A stretch of DNA of 64,000 bases, from assembly GCA_032718475.1 (NCBI GenBank), contig JAUCBJ010008936.1:69357-133356 (forward strand), read 5' to 3'. Origin of the DNA: Nemertoderma westbladi (taxonomy: Eukaryota; Animalia; Xenacoelomorpha). The notes below the pieces were generated by a model. That model was not told the DNA's origin and made no database searches. It worked only from the letters and a program-made list of their open reading frames with translations. Positions 21,602 to 53,965 of this stretch are shown piece by piece (positions within the stretch are counted from its first letter, which is position 1; every line of letters starts with the position of its first letter). Position numbers and translations under genes: made by a program.

Positions 21602-21830
21602 GGGCCTATCAGTACCGGTACCATTATATGTACCGGTATATATATATATATATATATACCGGTATATATTTAATATACAGATATAGGCTGCATCTTACAG
21701 TCTTACTTTTATACAACCTTATGACTGGCAATAATTATTACAACCACACAATATATAATAATACATACAGCATATTAGGCTTTTTATACTCGTATGGTGT
21801 TTGTATTTCTGTAATTCTATTAATTTAATT

Positions 21831-28196: not shown

Positions 28197-28304
28197 TCCG
28201 GACAATTCGGTCCCGGACAATTCAGTCCCGGACAATTCAGTCCCGGACAATTCGGTCCCAAAACATAAAATTAATGGGACCGAATTGTCCGGGACCGAAT
28301 TGTC
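28197..28304. repeat. Small foldback (MITE-like) built from 15-bp units ccggacaattc(g/a)gtc
   Basis: Four direct units are followed by two inverted units gggaccgaattgtcc. Confidence 0.7.
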
Positions 28305-28479
28305 CTGCTTCCAAATAATAAACGTATAGGCCTATATAGGCGTATATATTTAGGCGCATTAAGCTCAAACTGAAATCAACTACCGAAAAATCTAAATACA
28401 GTAGGCAATAGGAAAAGTTATGTAGAGGTATAACGGTATTTATTATTTAAAAATTATTGTTTACATTGATTTTTTTCAG

Positions 28480-30112
28480 TTGGATGCGATAGCACCAGCG
28501 TTAATACTGGCTGGAAAAACGGAATAATTGTGAACCTCGAACGGAAACTAGAAACACCACTTCAACATGCGATATGCCTCCTTCACATCAACGAGCTTCC
28601 ACTTCGACATCTGATAATAGAACTTGACGGTACTACAACAGGAAGCAACACATTTTCGGGTCCAGTTGGGAAACTCCTTCATAATTGTCACAAATTTAGC
28701 CCTGTTATATTTGAGCCTATTATCAATAATAATTTTCCTGAACTTGAACAGTCTGTTTCTTCCAAACTTTCGAGTGATCAGCGATATTTATTTGATATCT
28801 GCAATGCAGTAATATCTGGAGAACTATGTGAATCAACCGCCAATAAAACTCCAGGACCTATCAGTCACTCGAGGTGGCTTACAACTGCGTCAAGAATCCT
28901 TCGGCTTTATGTATCTACCGAAGATCCATCTGATGTACTTTCCCGTCTTTCTTATTTTGTGATAAATATATATGCCCCTTCCTGGTTTAATATAAAGCGT
29001 AATTGGGAGATACAATACGGGGCTTTACACTTCCTCCATATGTTGATTTTGTGTGACAAGTTACTCCTCGATAATGAAAAGACCATTATATTTCCAGTTC
29101 TCCGTCAAGGGGCATATTATGCTCACAGCGAAAATGTATTATTATCTTTGTTGTCATCTGAAGATAAGGACACTCGATTTCAGGCGTTTGATATAATACG
29201 TGAAATTAGAATATCGAAGTTGATAACTAGTGAGCCAATCATTAGAGTGTTCCGTACCCCTCACATATCGTGTACCGAGAATACATTATTAGAGCTACTT
29301 GAAACTAATGAAGAGAAACATCAACCCCCTTTAATAGCTAATAAATCTCTTACTGAGCTACAAATGTTACTGGAGAAAGGTCCTATGAAATGGGAAATTC
29401 CATGTCATTCCCAGAATGTGGAACAATTGGTTCAATGCGTGTCAACTGTATCCAAACGAGTCTGCGGTGTTAAGGAGAGAGATGGCTACATTAGAACTCA
29501 ATTATCTAGTCGCCAAACAATGCCAAAATTTAATTCTAAGAAAGATTTTAAGCTAAAGATAAACCTTAATATCCCCAGTAGTACAGATGGTGTTTAGTTT
29601 GAGTTATTGGATTCTGATTTTTCTTATATTGTGTTGGTGGTGATTAATAAAGCATCTTGATAGTACTGATCTCGTCCAGACTAATTACAATGTTCACAGA
29701 CCCAGTTCTACTGTTTATTATCACAAATTTTAGGGATAAGTTGGTTAAATATACACATTGACAAACATAATGACATAAATAACGATATTTTTTTGCGTAT
29801 TCGTGAAAAGCAACCTACTTTGGTGACTAGGTGCGGGGGTAGAACATATATGAAATTGTAAAATTATCGTTTCTTACAAATAACTAACTAACCAAGAATG
29901 CTATAAAATATGGGAAAGTTGAAATATAAAAGGAAAAAAATTTCATAAAAAATTTAATTTTTGAAAAAACGTTCGAAACAAAGTTGGCTTGTGCGGGGGT
30001 CAAATGTAAAAATAAAATGTTTTCATTTGTTTTGAAGTTATTTTTAATGAATTTGGCATCCCATTTACGATAGGAAAATTGAATTATCGAAAAAAAATTT
30101 TTGCACACCCTA
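28480..30112 (+). mobile_element. 5'-truncated hAT-superfamily (hATx/hAT19-like) transposon: last transposase exon plus right end
   Basis: After a tttcAG acceptor: GCDSTSVNTGWKNG..LE..L..PLQHAICLLHINELPLRH, SSDQRYL, HSRWLTTA, AHSEN, PCHSQNVE, with a stop at 29597. The end ...tttttgcacacccTA at 30112 looks like a TAGGGTG terminus. No left TIR was found. Confidence 0.78.
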
Positions 30113-33100
30113 TTATACATGGCATTGTATGGTCAGTAATAGGCCAACTCGAATATTCAAAATTGCAGCTATTTGTATGTTAATAGTATAAAGCATGGCT
30201 CATAAATTTGCAGCAAAATGACACTTCGTTAAAAATCTAGGTACAGCAAGATACAGTAGTATTGTAGATACATACTATTCATAGGCTTACAATAAAGTTA
30301 AAGTTTATCTTCAATATTGTCAAATATAGGAGGTAATATAAGTATGGATATTATGATGTGAAATACTAAGCTGAGTCTAAATATGTTGTCAGCATTCTTA
30401 TAAGGTTCCCGTACTAACACTGATTAAAAATAAAAATCGAAATTAAATCACCATTACAAGAAACACCCCATAATAAAATCTTACATTGGGCGAAGGTGTG
30501 CCTCTATATAGATTATTGATTGTTAGGCAGATCGATCAACATTGGCAAACAATCAATATTCCTTAAAACGTTAAAACGGACATCGGAAAATAGATGAGGA
30601 AATTCCCAAGAAGCAAAAATTTCAGGTCGCTGGTGTACTGTACTATGTTATTATTATCGTTTTTGACTTTATCGTTTATCGTTTGAAATAATGACAGTCC
30701 CTCAATCATTATTATAATTAACATCGGAAATGATAACCCGACCAGGAAAATCCAGATATAAATAATCGTAGATAGGACTTACAATAAGGATACACAACCC
30801 ATCTACTGTAGGCCCCTTCTCCAGTATTCATATCTTAGTTCTCTCACAACAGAAATACCTAATGCAGCACATACATTAGTTCAAGAATTTATGCAGCCAT
30901 TGTTGTGAAAATAAGCGGCAGCCAATATGCCATTATTTATACAAGAATATCTATATAATTCAGCAAAATATCTATATAATTCACCAAAATGTATATATCG
31001 AGATAATAATTGACCCAAAAATTTAAATTGCAGCCACTGTAGTAACCAGGCTTATATGTATATCCAATGTCCCTATAGAGCCAAAAATATATATCATTTT
31101 TTAAAAGACAAATCTTGAAATTTCAGATATTGGAATCAAATTTTAATAGATGGATCTAAAATATGTGATAAATTTTGTTCCAGGAATGTTAAATTTTTTT
31201 CTAATATATCTTTCGTTATCATGACAAACATAGCAGTACACTACATATTTCGGAGCATTTGGAGAACTTTCTAGGATTATCAAGAATAATGGATTTTCAC
31301 GTATACATAATTTCATTTTTTGCGCTTGAAAATGTTTCAATGTTTCTAATTTTTTCCATACTTACTATATTGAACATTTAAAGTTGTTAATTTGTTGTTA
31401 CAGCTATTCAAAATATATAAATTTTCTAAAATGTCTCAGAGAATATTCAAAACTAAACATATTTATAATACAGGCTAGCTAGGTTGCTAGGAAACTACAG
31501 TATAATTTAAATAGAACATTAGTGCAAAAAATATAAAACCATAATAATTGATTAAATGACACTAGAACGCCATCAAGATGGCTTTAAACGAACCTGTCTT
31601 ACACAGACTCCAAGAAACAGATGGGGATTGGAAGATGCAAACCAAGAATGACTTGCATCAACCAAAAAACTGCCTCCCATCTAATGTAATACACATTCGC
31701 CTAGGCAAACAAATCATAATCACAATTACTACAATGATGTGTGAAATGTTATCCATATCCGTAACCTGGGAAACGGCCCCAAAGAGCAGTTTATTCTGAG
31801 GAGGGGTCTTTCTGTATTAGATAAATAAAATAAAGAATACGAATTATTTATACCTAATACATCCTCAGTTAGCCTAATAAAAACATCGGAGCAACCAATA
31901 TAATGTACATGTACAAGCATCCTATGAAAGTTTGTGAAATGTTCCCTTAAGTCTACCCAACAGCCGTTGGTACCCGGCTGGCAGCCACCCTGGTTCAGTT
32001 TTATGGTTTTGTTAGTTTAATCGACAGCTGTTGTAAACGTCCCAGATATACAAAACCTACTAAGCCTTTGCATTACAATTGAGCTTAGCCTAAGTTGATG
32101 ACAGTATTATAACGATGACAATTAGGCCCTATAGATACATACGATATATAAATGATGTACTGCTTGACATTACACTAACTGGCTGAATAGAGATAGAACT
32201 ATAATAATACGTTTGGCATTCTGTCAGATTTCAGTAGTAAGTAACCTCATAATAATTGCTAAATATCAATCACCTGAAAAACATTTCAAGCAAGGGAGTT
32301 GTGGGTATTTAATTTCGCGTTCAATAATGTTGAAAATATGCAAATATTTCGAATATCGCACTTCGAATCGTTCCCAACTTTTTTATTCAACAACTAGACA
32401 ACAATTGATAAATACTTGCGTTTACAATTTTACAATGCATGCAAGTGGTTTCAAGCCATTTGGTGAACATACATAGTGAGTGATATAGTGACATATATAT
32501 ATAGTGATATAGGTAAATATATATATCCATCGTGTTTTTGCCGGCCTCAGCTTTAGACAAAAACTACCCAGTCTAAAGACAGGTTCGTTATAATGCATGA
32601 ATAAGGGTTGTGTAAACCCGAAAATTTGCAAAGGAGTAGCTATATTTTTTAAGTGACTGAGTGGTGTATATTTATTTATTGAAAAATATAATACATAGAG
32701 AAATATATATATAGATATTCCTTGTATCATGCGGGCCATATGTGTATAACTCCAGTGGCCCATTCGCATCCAAGAAATATATTTTTCAGGCCTATTCGCT
32801 ACCAAGTGGCCTTTTTTATCAAAGGCCATTTTGAATTTTGGCGGCCTAATTGCTGCAAATTGGCCCTGGGGCTACGTAAATTATTTACGTCGGCCTATAT
32901 GCTACTAGAAGGCCTAAATGGAACTAAGAATATATTCCCTATGGCCCAGAAGCTACAATGTGGCCCCTTTGCTACCACAATTTTATAGTTATATAGTTAT
33001 AGTTATGTATATAAATTAAATTATAAATTAAACGCCATCTGATGTATGACCATGGAATTTATTATTGGATAATTTAACCATGGCCCATATACTACTAGCG

Positions 33101-33224
33101 AAATATAATAAAAAATATATATTTCGTAATTTTTGGGCCATTGAGTTTTTCAAAACGTCAAAACGAGTAAAAGTTTTGTAGAATAGATTTATTTATACAA
33201 TATACAGTATAAAAACAATAACAA

Positions 33225-33495
33225 ATACACCAAACATAATGGTATTTTTTTTCACCAACATAACATATAGGATTACCCCTAAAGCTTTGCAGCATATTTC
33301 AAAGCATATTTCTAATTTATGTTACTTACAAATGCCGTACAATATGAAAAATATAAAAATGGGTTATGGGGGATAACTTAAACTTTAACTGTCTTTTTTT
33401 CATATCAACATCTCTTTTAGTAATGGTGGGGTGTATAAAACATTAAAACAACAAAACGGAGGGGGAGGGGGGTAGGGGCGCAATTCATCTTTCCG
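33225..33495 (+). repeat. Dispersed repeat, copy 2 (see 16110-16400)
   Basis: Direct sequence similarity to the copy at ~16.1-16.4 kb. Confidence 0.75.
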
Positions 33496-34115
33496 AATAT
33501 ATCATTACACTTGTATAAAAGATCACGTTCTCTCTCAATTGCAAATATATTCTTGAGGGGCGAGCCACGAAGTGAGCGAAGCTTTAGCATATGGGCGCCA
33601 TTGGCGAGTTGTATGTCGTCGTCGTAGTCTTTGATCGTTAATAACTCAGATATTCCTTGATGAAATTAAACGAAATTTGCTATGTATGTAGTCCGTCAAA
33701 ATTCAAAATCTGAAGTTTTGTCAAAAACGAACGAACGCAACGAGGAACAAGAGGAGGAAAAGTATTGTGTTGAAGACTTCTGACTAACGGCAGACAACTC
33801 GTTAATGGTGCTCATAATGGCTTTATGAAGCTCATCTTTTCCAAGTTCGTGAAACAGCGAGAGACCACATACAGCAAATGCGTAAACTGTGTCAGATGGC
33901 TACCGGTACGCGCTACTGCAGGCAACATCACTCTTGAGGTAAATGTCTTAAATTATTTAAATTTTAGTTAAATGATTTATACTAAAGTCGTACGGCCGAC
34001 TTAAAAACTAACTACTAAGTAATGCGAACGACTTACTAATTCGTTGGAACGACTCACTAAGACATTCGAATCACTTAACTACTGTATCTATGTTTCGATT
34101 GGCCATTACTAGTAT

Positions 34116-35407
34116 TAAAATATACAATAGCGGGTTTTTAAATTCAATATACAATACTGCAGTTGAAACTCAATAATGGCTAACTCAAGACAATCTGCAG
34201 TTTTCTAGTCTGCCGCTAGAGGACGAAATGTCTGAAAGTGAATTTTTTGACCTATTCAGTCATTTATGATCCGTTCAAGCTGAAAATTGTCAGATATACA
34301 TCCTGTGTCATTGTATGGTCGTTATCACTAGCGCGAAGGCTCCACTTCGTGAATTATACAATGTAAAATTTATCGTTAAACTCTTTTAATAAAAAGACCC
34401 TTCCTGAGTTATTAAGCCTTGAAAATAAGATATTTAGCGCCACTTAACGGCAGCCAATGAAATTACAGGACGCCAAAATCCACAACTAAACTTTCTAAAC
34501 CTTTTCTCTACTACATACATAACCAATTACAAAAACATTTACCGAGTCATAGATGAGATATTGGTGTGAGCCAGACAGACAGAGAAACAGAAGCGTGACA
34601 GACAGACATGGGCAGCGCCGATTTGGCCCTGTATTACACTGTATCAGGATTAGAGATTGTAAGTCGTTCGCACGACTTAGCAAAAAAAAGACTATTTCAT
34701 TTCCCTGTATGGGCTCCGCAGGTTTATTTTCAGTTCAGAAATAAAATTTGTAGTGGCCCATTTGCTACACGAATATATTTTTGTATTTGTGAGACAGGAG
34801 AAAACTTAACGAACCCCTATCGGCAAATTAAATTCTCACCGAAATGTTAAAGTATCTATTTAGGGAAAGGGTCAGGTTAACTTTGGCACGTAATTCTAAC
34901 TAAAACAATAAATTGAAGTCAATAGAAATTTATTTAGTTAATTTTTATTTATTTATTTAGTCCCCATTCAAGGATGCAAGGCAGAGATGTGCCCTGGCTA
35001 GACCCTTCAAAGCATTCGTGCCGAAACAAAAATTGCCCTCCCTGGCCTGTTAATGTTAACATGCCCTGTTAATATGCGATTATCATATGTTCTACTTGTA
35101 TACTTTTCGCGACCCTCCCCCCCCCCCCCCCCCCAGGGATTCAAGGAATCGGATATCTGTTGTCTTTGTACCTCGGTGGGTTTGAACTTCATTCATAGAA
35201 AACTGTAGAAATTTTTCACAGCGGCCCATTTACTACAGACATATATATGAAGTGTAAATCACGCAGGGCCGTTCATAATGCAACGCCAATAGATTCTAGA
35301 TTAGCATCCTCAAATTAAATAGCATTAAGAAAAGAAAAGTATTGATTGACAACAACGACATTTCTTAATATCTATTAATTAAAAAACAAATTACAAATAA
35401 AACAAAC
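34116..35407 (+). repeat. Long direct repeat, copy A
   Basis: Collinear with 46293-47882 from atacaatagcgggttttt to caaataaaacaaac. It lacks ~590 bp present in copy B. Confidence 0.92.
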
Positions 35408-35499
35408 TATATAAATGAACTAATAAAATATAAATGAACTAATAAAATATAATGAACTATATAAATGAACTAATAAGGAACTATATAAAAAATATAAGT

Positions 35500-37195
35500 C
35501 TGAGTCTGGGGACTACCCAAAGCGAACAACTGAGTCTGGGGACTACCCAAAGCGAACAACTGAGTCTGGGGACTACCCAAAGCGAACAACTAAGTCTGGG
35601 GACTACCCAAAGCGAACAACTGAGTCTGGGGACTACCCAAAGCGAACAACTGAGTCTGGGGACTACCCAAAGCGAACAACTGAGTCTGGGGACTACCCAA
35701 AGCGAACAACTGAGTCTGGGGACTACCCAAAGCGAACAACTGAGTCTGGGGACTACCCAAAGCGAACAACTAAGTCTGGGGACTACCCAAAGCGAACAAC
35801 TGAGTCTGGGGACTACCCAAAGCGAACAACTGAGTCTGGCGACTACCCAAAGCGAACAACTAAGTCTGGGGACTACCCAAAGCGAACAACTGAGTCTGGG
35901 GACTACCCAAAGCGAACAACTAAGTCTGGGGACTACCCAAAGCGAACAACTAAGTCTGGGGACTACCCAAAGCGAACAACTAAGTCTGGGGACTACCCAA
36001 AGCGAACAACTAAGTCTGGGGACTACCCAAAGCGAACAACTAAGTCTGGGGACTACCCAAAGCGAACAACTAAGTCTGGGGACTACCCAAAGCGAACAAC
36101 TAAGTCTGGGGACTACCCAAAGCGAACAACTAAGTCTGGGGACTACCCAAAGCGAACAACTGAGTCTGGGGACTACCCAAAGCGAACAACTAAGTCTGGG
36201 GACTACCCAAAGCGAACAACTGAGTCTGGGGACTACCCAAAGCGAACAACTAAGTCTGGGGACTACCCAAAGCGAACAACTGAGTCTGGGGACTACCCAA
36301 AGCGAACAACTAAGTCTGGGGACTACCCAAAGCGAACAACTAAGTCTGGGGACTACCCAAAGCGAACAACTGAGTCTGGGGACTACCCAAAGCGAACAAC
36401 TGAGTCTGGGGACTACCTTAAGCGAACAACTGAGTCTGGGGACTAAGCGAACAACTGAGTCTGGGGACTACCCAAAGCGAACAACTGAGTCTGGGGACTA
36501 CCCAAAGCGAACAACTGAGTCTGGGGACTACCTTAAGCGAACAACTGAGTCTGGGGACTAAGCGAACAACTGAGTCTGGGTACTACCCAAAGCGAACAAC
36601 TGAGTCTGGGGATTACCCAAAGCGAACAACTAAGCCTGGGGACTACCCAAAGCGAACAACTGAGTCTGGGGACTACCCAAAGCGAACAACTGAGTCTGGG
36701 GACTACCCAAAGCGAACAACTGAGTCTGGGGACTACCTTAAGCGAACAACTGAGTCTGGGGACTAAGCGAACAACTGAGTCTGGGTACTACCCAAAGCGA
36801 ACAACTGAGTCTGGGGACTACCTAAAGCGAACAACTGAGTCTGGAGACTACCCAAAGCGAACAACTGAGTCTGGGGACTACCCTACCCAAAGCGAACAAC
36901 TAAGTCTGGGGACTACCCAAAGCGAACAACTGAGTCTGGGGACTACCTAAAGCGAACAACTGAGTCTGGGGACTACCTAAAGCAAACAACTGAGTCTGGG
37001 GACTACCCAAAGCGAACAACTGAGTCTGGGGACTACCCAAAGCGAACAACTAAGTCTGGGGACTACCCAAAGCGAACAACTGAGTCTGGGGACAACCCAA
37101 AGCGAACAACTGAGTCTGGGGACTACCCAAAGCGAACAACTGAGTCTGGGGACTACCCAAAGCGAACAGCTGAGTCTGGAGACTATCCAAAGCGA
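35500..37195. repeat. Satellite, 30-bp unit ct(g/a)agtctggggactacccaaagcgaacaa, about 57 copies
   Basis: Highly homogeneous head-to-tail array with no spacers. A few 25-bp units and repeated variant blocks (gactaccttaagcg...gactaagcg) lie in the right half. Confidence 0.98.
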
Positions 37196-37202
37196 CCCAC
37201 CA

Positions 37203-40200
37203 TTAATCCTCGAATAGGGTCTTCTTGGCCCTCTTCATTACATTTAGGCGGGCATAAATTTGTTTGATGCTTTTTGAATTAAGTTTCAGTGCTGCAGTAT
37301 TAAGGAGCTGAGTCATTGATCCTTTCACAGTTCTAACAGCGGTAGAAGTATCGCGAAAGAGGTGGTCTTTGAAGACATCTTCCATGATTTTATTCTCAGA
37401 CTTTTTCCATATAGCCCGCTTTGGCTTTCCAGCCATTGGAGATTCCTCAGGTGAAGATATTCTACAAGCGTTTACATCCAACGGGCTGTTAGTCGTTGCG
37501 ATTGGTGGCCCTAATGCTTCAGTAGCGGGTCCCAAGTCAATATAAGGCAGGTCAATATTGGGCTGTAATGCAATGCCGGTACGTGGCTCTAATGCGTCAA
37601 TATTGGGTCCCAAGTCAATAAGCGGTGGGTCAATATGGGATTCTAAGTCAACATCTGTTTCACCGGGGTTATTGATAAGATTATAGGCCCGAACAGCTTC
37701 TGCCCCTGAATTCGCAGCATCGTATATTTTTCGTTGCGTAGACATGGAATGTGCCAACTGTTTAGAAACCAAGTTTTGTTCAACCACGGTACGATTCTCG
37801 CGTTGGTTATAGAATGATACTGAATGTCTGTTTAAAGTTGGCGTGATCTTGGATCTCGATTGTGGGAGAATGGTCTTCCACAGATCCTGAATCGGTCTAC
37901 AGATACCACCAATCGGCTGTCCCAGCGTTGTGGTAAACACGTTTTGGACCTGGATACGAACAATCGCATATTGCGGTCGACAGTACGTGCTCCATTGTTT
38001 CACTAATAAATAGGTTGCTTCATCCATGACTATTTTAGCACTTCCATACACTTGATCAGTTTTAAGTTTCGGAACACTTATAACGATTCTATTACTTCCC
38101 TCCCGTTTTCGTTTGGTTACATGTTGCAGCTCCATATTGATAAGCTGGCTAGGTCGCGCACCATTGCGTAAGGCGAGTGCTGCAAATAAGTAGGCCCGCA
38201 TGTCACTAAGCTTCTCACCTGTGGTGTTTGACTTATTGTTAGTAATGTTCTGTAAAGCTAAATGTATATTCTTTATTCTATCTGCAGCAAAAAATTCCCT
38301 GATTTCTTGTTTTGTAGGCATATTATTAGTAGCTTCGTCTAGGACAACGTGAGCCCTTCGTTTCAGGGCCCTTTTTTGCGACCTTTGGATTGCATCCACG
38401 ACACCTTTGGCAGTTAATATATCAAGTTGTGAAACACTATTATTGGTCTTTTGGGAGATGACAACGTGTTGTTGATGAGCAAAAGTCATAAACAGAACCA
38501 TCTTCTGCACGTATACTCTAAGCGAAGTAATTTCCCTCAACTTTTTATTACTACAAATTGTTTCCTCTTGAAGTAATTTATACCCATTCATCAACTGGTC
38601 GCCATTGAACATTATTGCGGGTGATATGGGCTCAGGTAAAGTCATTGCAATTAATGTGTAGTAATGTTTAACACGCTGGGCTGCAAAGTCGACATCTTTC
38701 CACTCCATATCACACATGGGTGATTGTAAATAGGCCCGAAACTCGCCGATGAGGGGTATGAACAAATTAGCAAATTCACTATCATCTTTAGGCACATCAT
38801 AACGTTTCCTGTGCTTTAAAATATGCACTCGCTCTTCATTTTGGACCCGTTTCCCATTTACCATGTCATACGTGGGAATCTCATGCGCATAGGTTAGGTG
38901 ATTGGGGAGTCGAAGTGTTATAGCTCCACATAGCGAACAATTTGAAGGAACTCTTTTACTATTTTTATGATGTTTCTTAGAAAGAGCGGACATATAACGA
39001 ATGTATTTCGGATTAGTAGCCTTATGCTGCTCCCTCATGTGCCGTGTAATATTAATAACTTTCTTATTGCAGGCCGGGCATTCTTTACGATATCGCTTGG
39101 TTACACCGCCATAAGACTTGCGTACGAATTGCCATTTATCACGTTTACCCAATATTGGTTTTCCAGTGTCTAAGCTTTCGTTGTCCTCAGAATCATCACA
39201 GTAAGATGAAGAATCATCCGGAGTCCAATCAGGATCATTGGTATATTGCAATTGCGGGATTTTTATAGCCGCAACTGCAGCATCTTCATCGTCATATGTA
39301 TTAGATTCATGTGTTTCAAATGTATTCATATGACTGTTACCTATAAAAATTAAATAAAATCGAATAATATCCACTGATACTGGGAAGACAATGGAAAGGG
39401 AACATTTTTAAAAGCAATTTTTAAATTCTCATTTTTAATGTCAGACAAAGTCTTTTATAAAATTTCATTGTACTGTAGAAGAAACCATCCCTAAATCACA
39501 CCCCGACAATAAACCAACCCCGGTCGAATTATGTATACTCAGTCCCAGTCATTTGCTACTTGAAACACTCCTGTTTAAGGAGCAGGTGAGCATCCATGCA
39601 CACACCGCACATGGTCAACTTCACCTTTCCCATTTGATTATTTCCCATAACCTTTGAGGCTGTATCATGTAGGCAGGCATTAGCCCATTGTTAGCCTACC
39701 ATTTTGATAGTTAAAGCTTTCTCTGTATGCCACTAGATTATAGTGTTTGTTGTGTGGTAATTTAGGATTAGCAGCAAGTGTTATATTTAAAAACAAGTGT
39801 TATAATTTCAGGTGTTTATATGATAGCAGTATTTGTTATTGCAGTGTTAAAAACAATATTTATTTTATTATTTTATTTTGCATTAAGATACCTACAGGTA
39901 GTTGCCATAGACTAATGTAATAAGGGGCCATCCATAAATGACATCACTCTGAACAGCGGAGGGGGGGGGGGGGGGGGGGGGGTTGATATTTCGTGACGAT
40001 TTGTGACGAAGGGGGGGGGGGGGGGGGGGTAAAAATGTCTTTAAAAACCGTGACGTCATTTATGGATAGCCCCTGATGTATTTTATTACCAGCCAGTCGG
40101 TAACATGATATTTAAAAATAATCAGTTCCAGAAACCGCATTGTAGCACTTGATTTCAACCCAATGGCCAATAATTTGAAGTGCATGTTATGTTACTAACC

Positions 40201-41535
40201 TCCAAAACCTTCTAATGGCATATTATCCAATTCAGTTAACATAAATGGAACCGTATCATCTAAAAGGCTGTATGTATGATTATCATCTGTGCTAAGCAGA
40301 GGTAAATCTATGCCTTGGTTGTCATTGAAATAAATTTCAGACTCCCGGAGAGGATTATCATTTATTCCAAATTCGCCATCATCTGAAAGATAACAAACAC
40401 TTTAAGTTAAAAAGTTATGCCTAGTAAACGACCGGTTAACCGGGACGAGTTCAAACCCGGGCCGGGTTGGGGTGACCCGGACCCGTCAAAAAAGACGCCG
40501 GGTACTGGGTTTTATTAAAATTAAGCACTTGCGTGAATGAGAATGAAAAGCCTGTTTGACATACCTATATACGTAGGTACCAGTACACAAAGTTGCCTAA
40601 AGCAGTAGGTAGTCAGGTAGTAGTAGCATCTTCTTAGATTTTATATCATTTTCGATTTTTTTTTTCAATTTTTTTCTTTTGATGTATCATTTTTTTTCGA
40701 TTTTATTTTATTTGTATCATTTTTGATATCACAAGTGTTGACCCGGACCCTGCGTTTTTGAGACAGACCCGGATCCGGCAAAATGTTCGACCCGGTCGTT
40801 TACTAGTTATGCCCTAATGCTGTAATGGGAATGCCTATCAAAAATAAATTGATTCCAATAAGTTGATTTAAATAATTTCAAAATAATTGTATTATTGATT
40901 GAGGCAGGCCTTAATTATTGTATAATTAATAAGTTGATTGCAACTGGAAGAAAACTTTGGCTCTCTTTTGTGATCAAAAACCTAAAAACCTAGTTTTAGA
41001 CTTTTTTTAAATTTTAGAATTTCAAATCGACAAAAACCTAGGCTTACAAAAACCTACTTTGCCAGCCCTACTAGGACCACCCTATCCAGGCACCAGGTCC
41101 CGGCAGATTGGCAGTACTGTTACTGGTTACTGAGGTAGGCCTACCGTAATTAAATTCATTAACCAGTCATCCAGTTAACTTACCAGTATCTGCGACATCA
41201 TCTTCACCAGAATTACAACTGCTACCGGTACCGGTACCGCATGAACTACCAGTATAGCAGTCTGAAGAATTCCAATTGTCGTCGTCATCATTATGAAATA
41301 CAGGAAACTTTGGCCCCTTAGGTTGCTTAGCCTTAGGCCTAAATACAGGCACAATGCGAGTGAGGTTTTTTTCTCTATTAATACCGGTACCGGTATTTGA
41401 TCCGGAAGGGAGGCTACAGTCACCGGAAGCAGTATTAACGCCGTTGCCTGTTACCGCTACCGGTAAGGTACCGGTACCAACCACCGCCGCCGGTAGGCAG
41501 GTAGGCGTAGGACATCTACGTTTTCGTCTTCCCAT
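37203..41535 (-). CDS. Intact spliced tyrosine recombinase with two C2H2 fingers and a C-terminal Myb-like helix: complement(join 41535..41184, 40382..40200, 39340..37203), 890 aa
   Basis: All four splice sites are GT-AG and phase-1 compatible, and the spliced length is 2673 nt. Fingers CPAC..RHMREQH and CSLC..NHLTYAH. YR catalytic set NGAR, KLKT, TLNRH, LAHS, KIY. C-terminal RAIWKKSE...KQIYARL. Confidence 0.86.
39924..40073. mobile_element. PIF/Harbinger-type MITE in YR intron 2
   Basis: TIRs ggggccatccataaatgacatcac and gtgacgtcatttatggatagcccc, with 3-bp flanks TAA and TGA. Confidence 0.8.
40422..40805. mobile_element. hAT-type MITE in YR intron 1
   Basis: Perfect 14-bp TIR TAGTAAACGACCGG and perfect 8-bp TSD GTTATGCC (40414-40421 and 40806-40813). 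Confidence 0.92.
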
Positions 41536-41934
41536 CAAGATCAACTGATCACAGCACCCTGCAGCACTGGTAACGGCTGAACGGGACGTGCTCTGTGCTC
41601 AGGGCAACGGACTGTCAACGGCAACGGATGTACCTGTAACGGTACTGCTGTACTGCGGTATGGCTGTATGGTAGGCCTGTCAGCCTGTACTGCTGTACTG
41701 TAAGGTAAGGCTACTTCTGCTGGATCTGAGCCTGAGGCTGTGAGGAAGACTGGTGTTTGTGATGCGCGATGCGGTACCGGCAAGCGGCAACCGGCTGTAG
41801 CTCCTATTTCTTTTCCTGTTTTCTGCAGTCGGATCTCGGATCCACTGACTGACTGACAGACTGATCCAGCAACTCAGTCAGCAACTCCTGAACTCCTGAA
41901 CTCACCCAGTCACCAGCTCACTGCAGCACTTCTT

Positions 41935-44900
41935 TAAAATTATAGTCAAGAATAAGTATCCTTTAAGTCGGAATACGAAGCACGTGACTTCCGCTCGTTA
42001 ACAACCGCAGCACGCGATGCCACTGATGGTCCAGCAGTCTGTCGGGAAATTCGAGTACGTCAGAGTTTATCTCAAATACAAAGGCTATCCCTCCGCAACA
42101 CCAGAATCTCGGTACAGAAACTAAATAAGAAAGCCCATCATGATGAAATCGGTGATGCTACTGAAAGCTATAGTCTAAAACCGGATGGCGAAGTCTGGCG
42201 GTATACAAAACACAGTGACGGCAAATGGAAACGAGACCGTCGATGGAGTTTTGTTGAAGTAGATGCAGATCGCTCTAGGACGACTCAGAACTCCTCTCGA
42301 TCAGATAGCGGTCCCCGCTCCCACCAGGCTATTTGGAGAAACCGTCCCCTGGACCAGGAAAACTAGTTAAGGGAGAGGACGCCGTAAATAGTGGACCTTT
42401 TCTAAACTGTTATAGTGCAAATGTGCAATCAATAAAAATGAAACTTTCCGAACTTCAGGTCTTGTTAAACAATAACAAATATGATATTATAGCCTTAACC
42501 GAAACTTGGGCAAATGAAACTATAACTGATGCTATGCTAGTGGGTGGTACTGATTATGCATCTATGAGACACGATAGATTCCATCTGGATCTGGGCGGTG
42601 GGGTAGCTATCCTTTTAAAAAAAAGCATTAAATGCTGTAGAGTGACTTTACCAAACCATCTTAGTGATGCTGAGGTAATAGGAATTGACTTATTAGGTTC
42701 TAATAAATCTAGAATCATATGTGGCTATAGACCACCTCCCAGACCGGACGTAGTTGATAACACAGCGATTTTATTGGAATCGCTGGCTTTTTTGTGCAAT
42801 ACATCACTCCCTTGTGTTTTAATTGGGGACTTTAATTATCCACTTTTTAATTGGTCTGAATTTGTGTATCCAGACAATGCTTGCTACAACCAGTTTGCCA
42901 CTTTTATCTTGCATAATAGCTTAACTCAATTGCAATTTAAACCAACTAGGGGCCCAAATGTGCTGGATTTAGTGTTCACATCGGATAATCAGTTTGTTTC
43001 TAGTGTTAATACTAACGTACCCTTCTCAACCAGTGACCATGACAGTGTTAGTTTTAATATTTTAGCACCATCCCTTCATATTAATGATAATTCAACCTCG
43101 TATACAGGTTTTTATGATTTTAATAATGGCGACTATACTGCTTTCAGTGCTTACATTAAGAATAGTAATATTATTACCAGGTATGAAAGTTGTGTTACGG
43201 TAGACGATTTTTATGAGACTTTTTCCTCAGTACTTAAGGAAGGCATAGACAAATTTGTCCCTTTCAAACCTTTTAAACAACGCAAAAAGTATTACCCGCT
43301 TTTTGTTAGACGCCTTCAGAGGGCGAAGAAATTACTGTGGAGGAAACGACATAGAGAGAATGGGCGACAAGAATATTATCGTGTGGCAAAGGCTGCAGCC
43401 TCTGCAGCTCACCGCGCTACCTGCATCAAAGAGACTGAAATCCTAAACTCGGGTAACCCTGCTTTAATTTATAAATATATAAATTCAAAGAGAAAATCCA
43501 CCTTGGGTATTGGCCCTTTAAAATTCAAAGGTGATACGGTAGTGGATGATGCGACAAAGGCCCGTATATTTAACGAGGTGCTAACCCAAAATTTTACAGT
43601 TGATAACAATGTAAGCATCAATATACCCAGTAAAGTGCATAGTAGTATTAATTTGTCGACTATAAATTTTAGCCCGGTAAATGTGTTAACTTTTTTGAAT
43701 AAGTTGCCCAATAAGAAAAGTGGGACCCCTGACAACCTACCGAGTATCTTATTTCATCGTTTATCAGTGTGCTTGGCTAAACCATTATCTGTTATATTTA
43801 AACTCTCTTTTGAGACACACACACTTCCATCTATTTGGCTTACTGCTACCATTATTCCTATCTTTAAAAAGGGTGATCCTTGCGACCCCTTTAACTATAG
43901 ACCAATATCATTAACTTGCATCGCATGCAAAATTATGGAAATGTGTGTCAAAAATGATTTATTATCCTATTTGCTATTGAATAAATTGATCAATAAGGCA
44001 CAACATGGTTTCTTGTGCCGTAGGTCTACCAATACACAATTATTGGAGTGTGTTACAGATTGGTATAATATGGTTGATAATAGGCAAAATATCGATATAA
44101 TTTATATCGATTTCGCCAAAGCCTTTGATTCCGTTGTGCACAGCAAATTATTAATTAAACTGAGAGCTTATGGCATAGCTGATGACTTGTTATTGTGGCT
44201 TTCAGCCCTTCTGTCAAATAGGACACAGCGTGTTGTTGTCGGTAAATATTGCTCAGATTTTGCACCAGTTACCTCCGGTACAATACAAGGGAGTGTGCTG
44301 GGACCACTTTTGTTCCTAATGTTCATAAACGACCTACCTGAACAGCTCTTGCCAATAACTGTCAAACTTTTCGCTGATGATGTTAAAATGTATGCTGACA
44401 GTTCGCAGTGCCATTTGCTATCCAATGCACTTAATAAACTGGAGACATGGGCCAGTACATGGCAGCTGTCGATTGCAGCACACAAATGTACTGTAGTTTA
44501 TGTGGGTAAAAACAATTGCAAACATGTGTACTACTTAAATGATAGCGTCCTCAGTGAAAGTTTATTTTGTAAAGATTTAGGCTTAACAGTAATGTCAGAT
44601 CTCTCATTCGATCGGTACTGCAGCGACCAAGTAGCCAAAGCATGTAAAATTGTCAACATTCTGTTTCGGTGTATTCAAACGAAAAACATTAAAGCTCTCC
44701 TTATGGCATACAAAAGTATGGTCCGCCCATTACTTGAGTATTGTACTTCAGTATGGTCTCCATATAAAAAAAGCAGTATCAATCTTGTCGAGAGCGTACA
44801 GCATTACTTTACTAGGCGCTTATATGCAAGGTGCAATATTCCCTATACTTGTTATACAAACCGTTTAGATTTTCTGTTCTTACAACCGCTGGAACTACGT

Positions 44901-45598
44901 CGTATCATATTTGATTTAAAGTTAACCTACAGTATTGACAGAAACCTAGTTGATCTAGATGTAGATAAATATTTTACAAGACCACCGCGTAGTGGTCTTC
45001 GAGGGCATTCTCGTAAATTATTTGTACCTAGGTGCAGACTCAATATGTGTAAAAACTCGTTTAAGCACAGAGTTGTTCCTATTTGGAACGAGTTACCTGG
45101 AGATCTTGTTGATGCTGTAAACCTAACCATTTTTACACGGGGTTTGTCAGGGGTTAACCTACTTAAATATTGCTCTTTTTCAAGAGACCAGGGTAATCCA
45201 TGGTTTTTTCAGTAAAATGTATTTAATCTCGTTAGTATTGTTTTTATTTTTTTTTTTTCTATTTTTTTCCAATGGTCAAACTGGATATTTTCTCTTACTT
45301 TGAACCAATTATTTTAAATTTAATGTTCTTTTTAATTTTCTTCAACATTCCTTGTGTAATTTTAATTTTAATTTCAATTTCAATATTCTTTTTTTCACAT
45401 TAAAACTAATTATGGACCACCATAAGTGCTATATGCCTGGTAGGTATCCTCTCCCTCGAACCATATAATGTATCTTATATCTCAATTACAATATTTTACT
45501 TATATTTAGTAAATGTATTTCGTGTATAATTTTGTATTAATATCTGTTGCTTTGTTTTTTTTTTAAATTTGATTTCGTGTTAATAAATAAATAAATAA
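41935..45598 (+). mobile_element. 5'-truncated CR1-clade LINE (family B), inserted upstream of the YR gene
   Basis: The ORF1 C-terminus (SYSLKPDGEVWRY...GKWKRDRRW...DQEN*, to 42366) is homologous to family A ORF1. It is followed by an intact ORF2, a 3' UTR and a (TAAA)n tail at ~45581-45598. Confidence 0.93.
42357..45215 (+). CDS. CR1 ORF2 (APE + RT), uninterrupted
   Basis: ANVQSI, LTETW, GDFN, LDL, SDH; YRPISLT, DFAKAFD, QGSVLGP, FADD; YKSMVRPLLEY, LRGH, WNELP. Confidence 0.94.
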   Translation, partial: GKLVKGEDAVNSGPFLNCYSANVQSIKMKLSELQVLLNNNKYDIIALTETWANETITDAMLVGGTDYASMRHDRFHLDLGGGVAILLKKSIKCCRVTLPNHLSDAEVIGIDLLGSNKSRIICGYRPPPRPDVVDNTAILLESLAFLCNTSLPCVLIGDFNYPLFNWSEFVYPDNACYNQFATFILHNSLTQLQFKPTRGPNVLDLVFTSDNQFVSSVNTNVPFSTSDHDSVSFNILAPSLHINDNSTSYTGFYDFNNGDYTAFSAYIKNSNIITRYESCVTVDDFYETFSSVLKEGIDKFVPFKPFKQRKKYYPLFVRRLQRAKKLLWRKRHRENGRQEYYRVAKAAASAAHRATCIKETEILNSGNPALIYKYINSKRKSTLGIGPLKFKGDTVVDDATKARIFNEVLTQNFTVDNNVSINIPSKVHSSINLSTINFSPVNVLTFLNKLPNKKSGTPDNLPSILFHRLSVCLAKPLSVIFKLSFETHTLPSIWLTATIIPIFKKGDPCDPFNYRPISLTCIACKIMEMCVKNDLLSYLLLNKLINKAQHGFLCRRSTNTQLLECVTDWYNMVDNRQNIDIIYIDFAKAFDSVVHSKLLIKLRAYGIADDLLLWLSALLSNRTQRVVVGKYCSDFAPVTSGTIQGSVLGPLLFLMFINDLPEQLLPITVKLFADDVKMYADSSQCHLLSNALNKLETWASTWQLSIAAHKCTVVYVGKNNCKHVYYLNDSVLSESLFCKDLGLTVMSDLSFDRYCSDQVAKACKIVNILFRCIQTKNIKALLMAYKSMVRPLLEYCTSVWSPYKKSSINLVESVQHYFTRRLYARCNIPYTCYTNRLDFLFLQPLELRRIIFDLKLTYSIDRNLVDLDVDKYFTRPPRSGLRGHSRKLFVPRCRLNMCKNSFKHRVVPIWNELPGDLVDAVNLTIFTRGLSGVNLLKYCSFSRDQGNPWFFQ

Positions 45599-46292: not shown

Positions 46293-47882
46293 TAAAAAAT
46301 ACAATAGCGGGTTTTTAAATTCAATATACAATATACTGCAGTTGAAACTCAATAATGGCTAACTCAAGACAATCTGCAGTTCTTTAGTCTGCCGCTAGAG
46401 TACGAAATGTCTGAAAGTGAATTTTTTGACCTATTCAGTCATTTATGATCCGTTCAAGCTGAAAATTGTCAGATAGGAACTAGAATACACCCTGTGTCAT
46501 TGTATGGTCGGAATCACTAGCGCGAAGGCCCCACTTCGTGAATTATACACAGTACCGGTATGTATAATTTATTAGATTAGATTAGAGATCGTAAGTTGTT
46601 CGCACGACTTAGCTAAAAAAAAGACTATTTAATTTCCCTGTATGGGCTCCGTAGGTTTATTTTCAGTTCAGAAATAAACTTTGTAGTGGCCCATTTGGTA
46701 CACGCATATATTTTTGTATTTGTGACATTATATTTTTACAGGAGAAAACTTAACGCAACCCCTATCGGCAAATTAAATTCTCACCGAAATGTTAAAGTAG
46801 TGAAAGGGTCAGGTTAACGTTGGCGCGTCATTCTAACCAAAACAATAAACGGAAGTCAATAGAAAAGACGTTTCAGTTTTATTTTTGGGGAATAATCCGT
46901 TGTTATATGCGTCGTGGAAATTAGCAAATGAAATAGAAGTTGGAGACAATGTTATATTACTGAGCTACTTGCATTTTTCGTCACTCATTGGGACATATTT
47001 AAAAATACCACAATCACAATCAATCAGAAACGATTAATATTTAATTTCGCGACAATTTTATTCAATAGTTTCGGGAATTTTCTTATAGAAAAGCAACGAA
47101 TGGCTAATTTTATCTAAAAGTTGGAACCCGGTGTTATTTGTTGTGCTCTTTCTATTTTCGACTGTGTTCGATTGTGTTTGGGTGTGTTCTTGTATGTTCG
47201 CTTGTGTTCTGTAAAAAGGACTATCCAATAAAATCAAAATCAGGTTGATTTCTTAATGCTTTATGCGATTACCAAATATGTGCTACTTGTCTACTTTTCG
47301 TAACACACGGTCCTTACTGTGAAAAGTACAGTAGGGCCTAAAGTACATTTTCGTCGGCCGTGAGACCATGGAATACACACAAAGTCTGATGACTTATTTC
47401 CAGTGCGGTCCCCACAGAACTATACTCCCCAGAGGAAACTCCAATACTCATTTAGCTACCATTCAAGGATGCAAGGCAGATATGCGCCTAGACCCTAGAC
47501 GCTTAGACCCTTCAAAGCGTTCGTGCCGAAACAAAAACTGCCCTGGCCTGTTAATGTTAACATGCCTTGTTAATATGTGATTATCATATATGTTCTACTT
47601 GTATACCTTTCGCGATACTTTTCGCGGATATCTGTTGTCTTTCTACTTCGGTAGGTGTGAACTTCATCCATAGAAAACTGTAGTAATTTTTAAGAGTGGC
47701 CCATTTACTACAGACATATATATGAAGTGTAAGTCACGCAGGGCCGTTCATAATGCAACGCCAATGGATTCTAGATTAGCATCCTCAAATTAAATAGCAT
47801 TAAGAAAAGAAAAGTATTGATTGACAACAACGACATTTCTTAATATCTATTATTTAAAAAACAAATTACAAATAAAACAAAC
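46293..47882 (+). repeat. Long direct repeat, copy B
   Basis: Collinear with 34116-35407, with an extra segment at ~46866-47450. Confidence 0.92.
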
Positions 47883-49196
47883 CAAATAAAATAGAAGCAC
47901 TATTTGAAGAGACAGTAACAATACCTGCAATATCTTACTGTAAAGTTTGTGAATCAAATCATAAATCCGACCTTCTCACCAAAACAGTAAACTCTAAGTA
48001 AGCGAATATATTGCAGTATCGATCTCTCATAACCGGTGAGGCAGAAAACAGTCTACGAGCAGACAAACTTCGATAAAACAAAATCCCGCGCAGCGAATCC
48101 TAAAATCAGGCTGACTCACTGACGGACTAAGGGGCTCGTATACTTTGCCGCGGTGTGATTTATATGGTTGGGCGAAAGGGACGCTAGCTAGGGGCAGAGA
48201 TTTGGAGATGTCTAACTAGCGGGCAAAGTGCAGTACGGACAAAAGTTAATTTTATATATTTTGAGGTGTAAATAATTTCTAACGCGCGTGTGTTAATTCT
48301 GAACAGTCAAAGCAGTTTTGCTCCTTCATATATATAATTACTGGGTACGGTGTGCATTTTACAAATATTCTAATTTTGTAACTTGTAGGGCCAATACTCA
48401 CGAATGATAAGGCTCCTTCCCCTCTTGCGTATTTCCAGGACTCAAATTCAGGCATAAGGTTAATGCTACGCCCAGAATTCGGCAATTTTAATTTACCAGG
48501 CCCCTAATACTAAGAAGAAATGTGTTAGTTTACTACTGTAGGCGTACAGTTACTAATAGCTATCCTGGCTCTTATCTGGAATTTTAGTCACCTAGGTAGG
48601 CTGGGTAACTTCCTATCAGGACGTTGGCGGGGACACGGTAGATGTTAGTATATCCCTAATAGCCTCAATTTATTTGCGCCTAGTCGTAAACTGCCCTACC
48701 GCCTGAACGGTACAATCCTAATTCAGGTGAAACACAGCAACCCTCCTAGCCTACAAGTTCTAATGCAATGGACACCGTTGTACTACAAATAGTCGCAAAC
48801 GCACCTGTACTTAGCAAGAGTTAGGCGTACAGTTTGCTGCACCCTACCAATGTGTATGCCTTGTACCGGTGTGCCTACGTCCTATCTGCGTACTAGTATC
48901 TCTGCCTGCTCTCTCTCCCCCCCCCCCCCCCCCCCCCCCCCGTAGGAATATGAAGGTCTACTGCGGTTTTTTCCTGAATTAAGACAGTACAGTCCCTAGA
49001 TGTAATTTTAGGCGTACAGCGTGTCACTACTTCTACCTTTGATCTTTGGTCTTACGCTTAGGTAGCAAGGCATCGAACGCTGTCTAACCTTTCAGGCGAT
49101 GGGCGAATAACTAAGATGGTATTGCGGGTTGTCTCCTGTCTACATTCCCTTGATGTTCCCGTTCATTGCTGCGGCCCGATCTCTAGCCGGCCATCC

Positions 49197-53300: not shown

Positions 53301-53965
53301 TCAAATACATCGGGTTCAACAACCTTAGGTGGGTAAACGACAGTTTCTCCCGCCTTTGGTCCGGTCATAGCAAATGAATGATATGGATTCGATAAAGGAT
53401 ACCCTCCTTCCTGGTAGCGTAGTTGTTGATGGTTCGAACACCTCGCCAATATCGGTTCGGGATTTTCCTTATTCAAACGCATCGGAATCGCATTTCGTTG
53501 TTCGCGCATACAAGAACCGCATTGATAATAAAGTTTATAAACTGAAAATGCTTCCTTGGTTTCTCTATCGTCCCCTCGAGTTCGTCTGTAAAGATGCATT
53601 CCATCGAATTCATCGCGTACCGCGGGCATAGGTTCATGCGCCTTTAGGTATTGCATGGTATGATACAAACGACTAATTTCAGTATCGGGGTCTTCGCTAA
53701 TGTCTCCCGTATCACACAAAGTGTCGTACGGGTAAAGTTAATTGAAGGTTTTGTGCAAACTTTCGATTCTTTCATTTAATGCGTTTTGTCTTTTCTTTAA
53801 TACATTTGAGTCATATTTAGTTCTCGCGAGTTTCGCAGTACTTTCTGATAATTCTTTTATACCAAATATAGTGTAGTCCTTGGCTCCAAATCTTTCGAAT
53901 GGCGCTGCTGCCTCCTCTTGGATATCATATCCCCATCTCGGCTCTCCTTGTATCCCTTTCTCCAT
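50352..53965 (-). pseudogene. BEL accessory ORF (~1200 codons; one stop, one frameshift) with three CCHC-type knuckles and an RG-rich tail
   Basis: ORFs 53738-53965 and 52370-53719 are in the same frame across one TAA; 50352-52391 overlaps in another frame. Knuckles CGKCGVAGHHSTKC, CGWCGDQGSHTFYTC and CTYCNIKGHRASEC. It ends RGRGRARSTKR immediately before the PPT. Confidence 0.75.

What the first reader, a model, noticed from the sequence alone, without database searches (positions are those of the whole stretch)
35500..41535. Intact, spliced, RT-less C2H2-tyrosine recombinase whose stop codon abuts a 1.7-kb satellite
Seen: a three-exon 890-aa gene with a complete R-K-(T)xxRH-H-Y catalytic set. 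It is still open even though MITEs occupy both introns, which suggests selection on the coding sequence. The 30-bp array starts 7 bp after the stop codon. No linked RT/RNase H in DIRS/Ngaro arrangement, polB or capsid gene is visible, and the C2H2 + YR + Myb-like architecture is not one I recognise as a classical Crypton. Inference: the integrase of a poorly described large animal YR DNA element (conceptually like a Starship captain or a viral integrase). The array could be subterminal binding or recombination sites, or the preferred target.
Basis: partly seen in the sequence, partly recalled or inferred. Interest (0 to 1): 0.8.

Follow-up and report, generated by a model that had tools for sequence, protein, structure and literature searches.

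The report
Crypton-like recombinase beside splice-edge minisatellite
An animal genome carries an unbroken gene for a predicted DNA cut-and-rejoin enzyme of a widespread but little-described family that likely drives jumping DNA, and the 1.7-kb repeat next to it likely grew from a predicted splice signal rather than serving as the enzyme's working site.

Summary
The anatomy is real: a 2,673-nt, three-exon model gives an open 890-aa tyrosine recombinase (YR), and a 57-copy 30-bp array begins just past its stop. The architecture is not unique. phmmer finds 116 relatives (crinoid, Hydra, coral, isopods, fish; several at many loci per genome) with the same zinc fingers, R-K-TxxR-H-Y site and helical tail. 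This matches a Crypton-type DNA transposase, nearest in description to CryptonV and the nimaviral YRs; membership could not be tested without their sequences. Runs of the same organism show one low-copy full gene, an internally deleted copy and frameshifted fragments, so it has been duplicated and has decayed. No cargo, viral gene, terminus or target repeat was found, so 'large Starship-like element' is unsupported. The array has no recombination-site symmetry, is local, and its first unit starts exactly at a good donor-like GT two bases after the stop. Unchecked earlier notes report many exon-edge arrays in ordinary genes of this genome. It is most likely an intron-start minisatellite unrelated to recombination. 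The window's allele lacks a near-invariant His and has a LINE about 420 bp upstream, so it may be failing.

The parts
41184..41535 (-). Predicted exon 1 (ATG at 41535; low-complexity, aa 1-117)
   Evidence: donor CTG|GTAAGT ranks 2 of 408 GT sites; no RNA
40950..41070 (.). Fragment of a high-copy repeat in intron 1 (approximate limits)
   Evidence: depth 830-1,800 in bin 40947-41287 in three runs
40422..40805 (.). MITE in intron 1: perfect terminal inverted repeats, 8-bp TSD GTTATGCC (hAT-type by recalled TSD rule)
40200..40382 (-). Predicted exon 2 (183 nt, acidic)
   Evidence: donor ranks 6 of 408
39924..40073 (.). MITE in intron 2: 28-bp arms 89% complementary, flanks TAA/TGA (PIF/Harbinger-type by recalled rule)
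37203..39340 (-). Exon 3 (aa 179-890 and stop): all recognisable domains
38883..39080 (-). Two C2H2-like fingers (aa 266-284, 313-331)
   Evidence: (zf-Di19 E 6e-4, below cut-off)
37722..38156 (-). YR active-site span R574...K605...T680xxR683...H709...Y718
   Evidence: PF00589 E 2.7e-4, below cut-off
37206..37445 (-). C-terminal helical domain shared with the family; homeodomain/Myb-like fold only weakly suggested
   Evidence: 17.9 bits against a family tail profile, best of 200 shuffles 3.9
37195..37203 (-). Donor-like site ATG|GTGGGT, GT at 37200-37199, 2 nt after the stop; predicted start of a 3'-UTR intron
   Evidence: rank 4 of 408 GT sites, recalled weight matrix; register test
35500..37200 (.). 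30-bp minisatellite, about 57 units; two variants make 38 of 57; block duplications; diverged first unit at the gene side
35405..35494 (.). Short AT-rich 19/31-bp repeat at the far end of the array
41536..41956 (-). Upstream region; strong donor at 41905 suggests a 5'-UTR exon; part is shared with other copies
41957..45593 (+). 5'-truncated, high-depth endonuclease-RT LINE with candidate 6-bp TSD AATAAG, inserted about 420 bp upstream of the ATG; not part of the YR element

Best explanation
This is likely the transposase gene of a low-copy Crypton-type (CryptonV-like) tyrosine-recombinase DNA transposon that has long sat at this place, and the 30-bp array is likely a separate minisatellite that grew from the first 30 bases of a predicted 3'-UTR intron. 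Shown: an open 890-aa model, a YR fold prediction, the family's invariant catalytic residues, deleted and frameshifted sister sequences in runs of the same organism, and the array's first unit starting at a donor-like GT. Inferred from YR chemistry and the Crypton model (PMC3212892): the zinc fingers and helical tail bind the element's ends or a repetitive target; Y718 cuts and rejoins DNA; the element leaves as a circle and re-enters elsewhere with no RT, no TIR and at most a few bases of direct repeat; deleted copies ride along. Inferred for the array: slippage or unequal crossing-over expands it into non-coding sequence, and the exon edge stops it spreading into the gene, which is why it abuts the stop. 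The window's allele may be failing: L604 in place of the family's His, and a LINE in the upstream region.
For: Family: 116 hits at E<=1e-3, best 5e-17, 20-38% identity. 7 of 30 clusters looked up name an organism, all animals; Hydra, Armadillidium and Paramormyrops clusters hold several loci. Armadillidium clusters of 7, 19 and 12 members. Atlas neighbours 0.97-0.98 in Chordata and Arthropoda. A second, broken member lies at window 1-1709 (E 4e-8, window-scale search). Same organism: contigs in X1 and X2 leave the gene at 37686 and continue in sequence like 41631-41716, an internally deleted copy. A roughly 90% copy of 37366-37542 is in X1, X2 and X3. A fragment family over 38691-39473, at about 3-9 times core depth, has 1-bp deletions and 7 synonymous of 28 listed exon changes, i.e. 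neutral. The window frame stayed open: 10 of 1,000 simulated frames survive 4.5% substitution, 0 of 1,000 with indels. Array: no core-site symmetry; array-bin depth 52 and 61 times core depth in X1 and X3, about what this one array would give; donor-like GT rank 4 of 408, chance in that gap about 0.004; none of 8 other window arrays has such a site; exon-edge minisatellites are a described type (PMC3087553).
Against: No element ends, direct repeats, empty site or target microsatellite found, so mobility is not shown. The full gene is at low depth and nearly identical in three samples (2-3 differences per kb), so there is no sign of current transposition. The 'deleted copy' could be a deletion allele of this locus, not a paralog. 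The intron is unproven (no RNA), the weight matrix was recalled, and unlike classic mirages the unit holds no exon bases and later units have lost the donor. A second, diverged array of the same 17-bp core exists, which fits co-inheritance with a YR copy and so also fits a function. Summed contig depth is not a copy number: X2 and X3 are one sample yet give array ratios of about 6 and 61.
Confidence: 0.6

Rival explanations
1. Domesticated host gene: a former transposase now kept at one locus by the host, with the fragments being old debris or segmental copies.
For: Low depth, shared by three samples; frame open despite three intron insertions; host-like intron structure and a probable UTR intron; Crypton YRs have been domesticated repeatedly (PMC3212892).
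Against: The full catalytic set is kept, whereas domesticated DUF3504 genes mostly lose it. Two of three inter-sample differences in the core are non-synonymous, one at a His held by 100 of 112 relatives. A 3.9-kb deletion form is carried in at least two samples. Relatives are multi-locus in single genomes.
Confidence: 0.17
2. One reading: the array is a working part of the element (subterminal arm-type binding sites for the zinc fingers or tail, or the preferred target).
For: Adjacency is unlikely by chance. The array-stop junction is present with 0 differences in an independent sample (X2 contig 37139-37395). A diverged array keeps the core TCTGGGGACTACCCAAA while the spacer changes. CryptonV and nimaviral YRs target repeats.
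Against: No inverted-arm symmetry: 81% of shuffles reach the observed core-site score and 30% the short-arm score. The array is on one side only, whereas a target would flank both ends. Its depth fits a local array, not a dispersed target. Its start coincides with a splice-donor-like site. The second YR locus has an unrelated 20-mer, upstream rather than downstream.
Confidence: 0.12
3. Remnant integrase of a large endogenous DNA virus or giant element (nimavirus-like or Starship-like) whose other genes were lost or lie outside the window.
For: Nimaviral YRs are described as C2H2 + SAM-like + YR, some multi-exon, and distinct from DIRS, Enterprise and Cryptons (PMC10871703). DUF3435 clusters appear in the Atlas at 0.91. 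A PWWP ORF lies 3.2 kb upstream of the second YR.
Against: No viral or cargo gene among the ORFs scanned. None of 30 clusters looked up carries a viral name. No relative in IMG/VR with three queries. No nimavirus among the 50 BFVD rows shown. No DUF3435 hit in 59 members. The same paper notes YR-like relatives not tied to viruses.
Confidence: 0.06

Closest known systems
CryptonV (Kapitonov and Jurka 2012, Repbase Reports; seen only as a cited title and one sentence in PMC8869645; listed in PMC5753468)
   Same: RT-less YR DNA transposons of animals, first described from cnidarians; the third-best hit here is a multi-locus Hydra protein, and Hydra has annotated Crypton-V repeats (PMC13465017).
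   Different: Some CryptonV families sit in microsatellites; none was found at plausible ends here. Sequence identity with CryptonV could not be tested.
Nimaviral tyrosine recombinases (Kawato et al. 2023, PMC10871703; passages)
   Same: C2H2 zinc domain, SAM-like core-binding domain and YR; some genes multi-exon; related YRs not tied to viruses are noted.
   Different: Those sit in 270-580-kb viral genomes at 22-477 copies, in telomere repeats or 28S rDNA. Here there is no viral gene, no telomere repeat, no Rfam match and low depth.
CryptonA/I/F/S (Kojima and Jurka 2011, PMC3212892; part 1 of 7 and passages)
   Same: YR-only DNA elements, ends hard to define, internally deleted non-autonomous derivatives.
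   Different: CryptonA/I have no C-terminal domain and CryptonA is DUF3504-type; CryptonF has GCR1_C. Neither Pfam family hit the protein or 58 relatives. This protein has N-terminal fingers, a C-terminal helical domain and Thr in place of the first His of R-H-R-Y.
Starship captains (DUF3435; PMC9156397, passages)
   Same: Intron-bearing eukaryotic YR; weak feature-level likeness (Atlas 0.91, 140 of 256 features).
   Different: No PF11917 hit, no cargo, no defined ends, animal host.
'Mirage' exon-edge minisatellites (PMC3087553, passages)
   Same: Tandem array beginning at a predicted exon-intron boundary; homogenised interior and a diverged boundary unit.
   Different: Classic mirages span the boundary and often repeat the splice signal; here the unit holds only intron-side bases and later units lack a usable donor. 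The intron itself is unproven.

Membership tests
Tyrosine recombinase superfamily | Core-binding plus catalytic fold with R, K, R, H/W, Y | tested here: met
   (XerA/XerH/Cre); R574 112 of 112, K605 112 of 112, R683 100 of 101, H709 96 of 96, Y718 94 of 95 rows with a residue, out of 116 hits
Crypton (broad sense: eukaryotic YR DNA transposon) | YR without linked RT/RNase H | tested here: met
   the nearest RT is an endonuclease-RT LINE with its own TSD
Crypton (broad sense) | R-H-R-Y tetrad | tested here: inconclusive
   R, R, Y kept; first His is Thr (T680), as in 78 of 102 relatives: a family variant, activity untested
Crypton (broad sense) | No TIR or long repeats; 4-6-bp terminal direct repeats or none | tested here: inconclusive
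   ends unknown; only 7-8-bp AT-rich matches between candidate end regions; a 1.3-kb flanking repeat pair is a dispersed high-depth family
Crypton (broad sense) | Dispersed copies and internally deleted derivatives | tested here: inconclusive
   deleted, diverged and frameshifted sister sequences seen in contigs; allele versus paralog and flanks not resolved; no genome held
CryptonA/I | DUF3504-type YR, no C-terminal domain | tested here: not met
   no PF12012 in 59 members at E<=0.01 or in the query at E<=10; C-terminal domain present
CryptonF | GCR1_C domain | tested here: not met
CryptonV | Sequence clusters with Repbase CryptonV transposases | not testable with these tools
   no Repbase access; review PMID 30416149 not held; searches gave no sequence description
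CryptonV | Insertion in microsatellites (some families) | tested here: inconclusive
   no microsatellite longer than 16 bp or telomere dimer near candidate ends, but the ends are unknown
Nimaviral YR | C2H2 + SAM-like + YR architecture | tested here: met
   Phage_int_SAM_1 in 3 of 59 members
Nimaviral YR | Embedded in a nimavirus genome with core genes | tested here: not met
   no such gene by Pfam in the ORFs scanned; no dedicated WSSV-gene search was possible
Nimaviral YR | Phylogenetic placement in that clade | not testable with these tools
   no nimaviral sequence came back from any tool; the supplements held as text gave none
Starship | DUF3435 captain at the 5' end of a cargo-bearing element | tested here: not met
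DIRS/Ngaro/VIPER | RT-RNase H with YR inside inverted or split direct repeats | tested here: not met
Mirage minisatellite | Array begins at an exon-intron boundary | tested here: inconclusive
   first unit starts at a donor-like GT, rank 4 of 408; no RNA to confirm the intron
Mirage minisatellite | Unit spans the boundary (holds exon bases and the splice signal) | tested here: not met
   the five exon-side bases match the unit at 0 of 5; in-register GT sites of later units score -6 to -9

The most novel reading that the evidence does not exclude
This zinc-finger YR family is a large, barely described superfamily of repeat-homing animal DNA transposons that also supplied the integrases of endogenous nimaviruses, and this lineage carries its own binding or landing pad: a 30-bp array with a conserved 17-bp core, hidden in a 3'-UTR intron so that it costs the transcript nothing and is read by the enzyme's zinc fingers or tail.
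Probability: 0.12. Interest if true: 0.72.

Novelty: new member of a known kind. Interest (0 to 1): 0.33.

Why it matters
Modest. Animal YR DNA transposons of this kind are thinly described: ten literature searches found one sentence on CryptonV and one paper on nimaviral YRs with this architecture, and none describing the wider family's proteins; the library lacks Repbase Reports and most subscription journals. A near-intact, divergent member (at most 26% identical to any hit in the catalytic region) is a usable starting point for testing whether such enzymes excise circles and choose repeats, which would be of interest for targeted integration tools.

Tried and rejected
No whole genome is held, so copy alignment was impossible. 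Word-index homolog searches with exon 3 and with alignment A1 found nothing; the third, with P0009, found only isopod relatives. The search for related loci: nothing in IMG/VR for the query, A4 or A5, nothing in JGI metagenomes for A5; A1-A3 had no stretch conserved enough. The 30-mer was absent from JGI metagenomes. So no flanks of relatives were seen, and whether relatives abut arrays is untested. No RNA holder listed; this is no evidence on expression. X1 and X3 have no contig over 37202-37243, and X4 is patchy; these holes prove nothing, so whether the deleted copy carries the array is open. Rfam: no match in the window. NCBIfam: only weak integrase hits. Alignment A6 misplaced the tail and was dropped. 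The wide structural search for the tail never ran. Rejected: the flanking pair 34116-35415 / 46293-47890 as LTRs or split direct repeats (84-92% identical, interrupted by different insertions, high depth); the LINE as the YR's RT; the 30-mer as a lox/dif-like core; telomere repeats as target; a '155-bp GT..AG skip' at 38864-39020 as an intron (wrong strand, replaced by other letters). The tree of 100 catalytic regions (17 of 117 rows dropped for gaps) has weak deep support and no named reference YRs, so it assigns no family. The estimate that three insertions all land in introns (0.02) is partly circular, since the exon model was drawn around them.
Full report
1. The observation. The gene model holds as sequence. 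Three exons on the minus strand (41535-41184, 40382-40200, 39340-37203) join to 2,673 nt and 890 aa without an internal stop; both introns are GT-AG and phase 1. The two donors rank 2 and 6 of 408 GT sites on that strand of 33000-42000 under a recalled weight matrix. No RNA run was listed, so splicing is predicted only; exon 3 alone holds all domains. Pfam gives PF00589 at E 2.7e-4, below cut-off. An AF2 model of residues 255-745 has pLDDT 85.9 and matches XerA, XerH and Cre. Intron 1 holds a MITE with a perfect 8-bp TSD and a second repeat fragment; intron 2 holds a MITE with 89% complementary arms. The array has period 30, 56.9 copies and 94% matches.

2. The family. phmmer over 1.84 billion representatives gave 116 hits at E<=0.001, 3 at <=1e-10. 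Of 30 clusters looked up, 7 name an organism: Anneissia, Hydra, Armadillidium, Sparus, Serrasalmus, Paramormyrops and Desmophyllum; two more carry generic names and none is viral. Several clusters hold many loci of one species or genus; Armadillidium clusters have 7, 19 and 12 members. Among rows with a residue at the column, R574 is kept in 112 of 112, K605 in 112 of 112, R683 in 100 of 101, H709 in 96 of 96 and Y718 in 94 of 95; T680 stands for the usual first His in 78 of 102; H684 is not conserved. Of 55 hits of 600 aa or more, 51 have the C2H2-like motif and 42 match a tail profile built from 47 of the family's own tails. The query's tail, not in that set, scores 17.9 bits against a best shuffle of 3.9. 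Its model is helical (pLDDT 72) with only non-significant homeodomain, SANT and Zeste matches. No member of 59 hit DUF3504, GCR1_C or DUF3435.

3. Copies in the same organism. Four runs from three samples hold the stretch; X1 may be the window's own source. All are contigs, so depth is only a rough guide. The YR core (37634-38720) lies on single contigs at depth 9, 20 and 66 with 0, 3 and 3 differences, about 1.5-3 times the lowest flanking depth, while the MITEs, the LINE and the repeats right of 45900 are at hundreds to tens of thousands. In X1 and X2 a contig leaves the gene at 37686 and goes on in sequence like window 41631-41716: a form lacking about 3.9 kb with both flanks kept. It may be a non-autonomous copy or a deletion allele. 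A roughly 90% identical copy of 37366-37542 is in three runs. A fragment family over 38691-39473 has depth 60-190, 1-bp deletions and a 160-bp replacement; 7 of the 28 exon changes listed are synonymous (40 of 70 rows were shown). Against that decay the window frame stayed open: in simulation 10 of 1,000 frames survive 4.5% substitution and none with 10% indels, which supports past selection if about half the divergence fell on this lineage. Against present activity: X2, X3 and X4 carry His at 604, as do 100 of 112 relatives, while the window and X1 carry Leu; and a 5'-truncated LINE with a candidate 6-bp TSD sits about 420 bp upstream of the ATG. A second, broken member of the family lies 35 kb away at 1-1709.

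4. No large element. Pfam on 12 long ORFs, 82 smaller ORFs or segments and 8 further ones found LINEs, a BEL/Pao element, piggyBac pieces, a PHD and a PWWP domain, and no viral or cargo gene near the YR. No relative was found in IMG/VR. No terminal repeat or flanking microsatellite was found. The direct-repeat pair at 34116-35415 and 46293-47890 is 84-92% identical, carries different insertions and belongs to a dispersed family.

5. The array. Its closeness to the stop is unlikely by chance (about 0.003), and the junction is identical in an independent sample (X2 contig 37139-37395). But the unit has no core-site symmetry: 81% of 2,000 shuffles do as well. The array bin's depth is 52 and 61 times core depth in X1 and X3 and about 6 in X2 and X4, never the thousands of a dispersed satellite. 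It lies on one side only. Read on the gene's strand, the sequence is TAA TG|GTGGGT: a donor-like site 2 nt after the stop that ranks 4 of 408. In register the first unit starts at that G, differs from the core unit at 4 of 30 bases, and the five bases before it match at none. The chance of so good a site in that gap is about 0.004, and none of 8 other window arrays has one. There is no AATAAA or ATTAAA on that strand between the stop and 34957. Exon-edge minisatellites with diverged boundary units are described from amphioxus (PMC3087553, passages). Earlier notes of this scan report many such arrays in ordinary genes of this same genome (8 shown of 51 that fitted the words); these are unchecked AI notes, used as the lead for the test above and not as support. 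Against this reading: no RNA; the unit holds no exon bases; and a diverged array elsewhere keeps a 17-bp core while the spacer changes, which could be plain co-inheritance with a YR copy or constraint.

6. How it likely works. Shown: open frame, predicted fold, conserved residues, sister sequences, array register. Inferred from YR chemistry and the model in PMC3212892: the enzyme binds the element's ends, cuts through a phosphotyrosine at Y718, frees a circle and inserts it elsewhere; relatives described so far prefer repeats (CryptonV in microsatellites, PMC8869645; nimaviral YRs in telomere repeats or 28S rDNA, PMC10871703). This copy's target is unknown. The array likely expands by slippage or unequal crossing-over inside a 3'-UTR intron and is halted by the exon edge.

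7. Comparison and sources. It works like a Crypton. It fails the markers of CryptonA/I/F, Starship and DIRS. It shares the described architecture of nimaviral YRs without the virus. CryptonV is the likeliest name but could not be tested. Papers seen: PMC10871703 passages and a supplement search (figures and sequence files not held may bear on placement); PMC3212892 part 1 of 7 and passages; passages of PMC8869645, PMC5753468, PMC13465315, PMC13465017, PMC3706591, PMC9156397, PMC3087553. The Repbase CryptonV report was seen only as a citation; PMID 30416149 was not held. The labels hAT and PIF/Harbinger for the MITEs are recalled from TSD rules. Three earlier notes describe like genes in other genomes, as 7.7-kb and 14-23-kb repeat-homing elements or as debris (unchecked).

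8. Verdict. A real, divergent and nearly intact member of a known but thinly described kind of animal YR transposase, next to a minisatellite that is probably incidental. Interest 0.33.

Noticed in passing
window 1-1709 (-), with 3160-3394 and 4910-5281: Second, broken member of the same YR family (C2H2 piece, core-binding piece, catalytic piece with HKT motif; frameshifts and stops; cut by the window edge). Upstream lie a 20-bp array (11.6 copies), a piggyBac fragment and a PWWP ORF on the same strand (E 1.8e-12); one homolog, P0033, carries a PWWP-associated domain.
   Followed up: partly
window 34116-35415 and 46293-47890: Two direct copies (84-92%) of a composite repeat bracket the YR and array, ending at the same base; built of pieces at very different depths, baseline about 150 in X1. 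Nature unknown.
   Followed up: partly
window 41957-45593 (+): Young 5'-truncated endonuclease-RT LINE, intact 968-aa frame, contigs nearly identical at depth 160-1,000, candidate TSD AATAAG; related older LINE at 10724-14790 (-) with PHD-bearing ORF1.
   Followed up: partly
window 38065 and 38305: The window and run X1 differ from X2, X3 and X4 at two non-synonymous sites (aa 604 and 524); 604 is the His of the family's HKT motif.
   Followed up: yes
window 41663-41909: Runs X2 and X3 show a joint skipping 245 bp of the upstream region; this region is at several times core depth in all runs.
   Followed up: no
window 19028-23842 (+): Open 857-aa ORF with two N-terminal C2H2-like motifs followed by 233- and 294-aa ORFs, no Pfam hit; looks like a CACTA/EnSpm-type DNA transposon (recalled motif, untested).
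   Followed up: no
window 50352-61161 (-): BEL/Pao LTR element (DUF1759, Peptidase_A17, DUF5641) followed by two long ORFs (455 and 693 aa) with no significant Pfam hit, an unusual extra load.
   Followed up: no
window 28198-29597 (+): 375-aa ORF without Pfam hit, preceded by a 15-bp tandem and inverted repeat cluster typical of a DNA-transposon end.
   Followed up: no
window 37505-37639: Internal 57-bp duplication (81%) in the YR's proline-rich linker; X3 shows a 6-bp in-frame deletion there.
   Followed up: no
window 5829-6060 (+): Exon-like piece with a clear acceptor and donor on the plus strand near the second YR; no Pfam hit.
   Followed up: no
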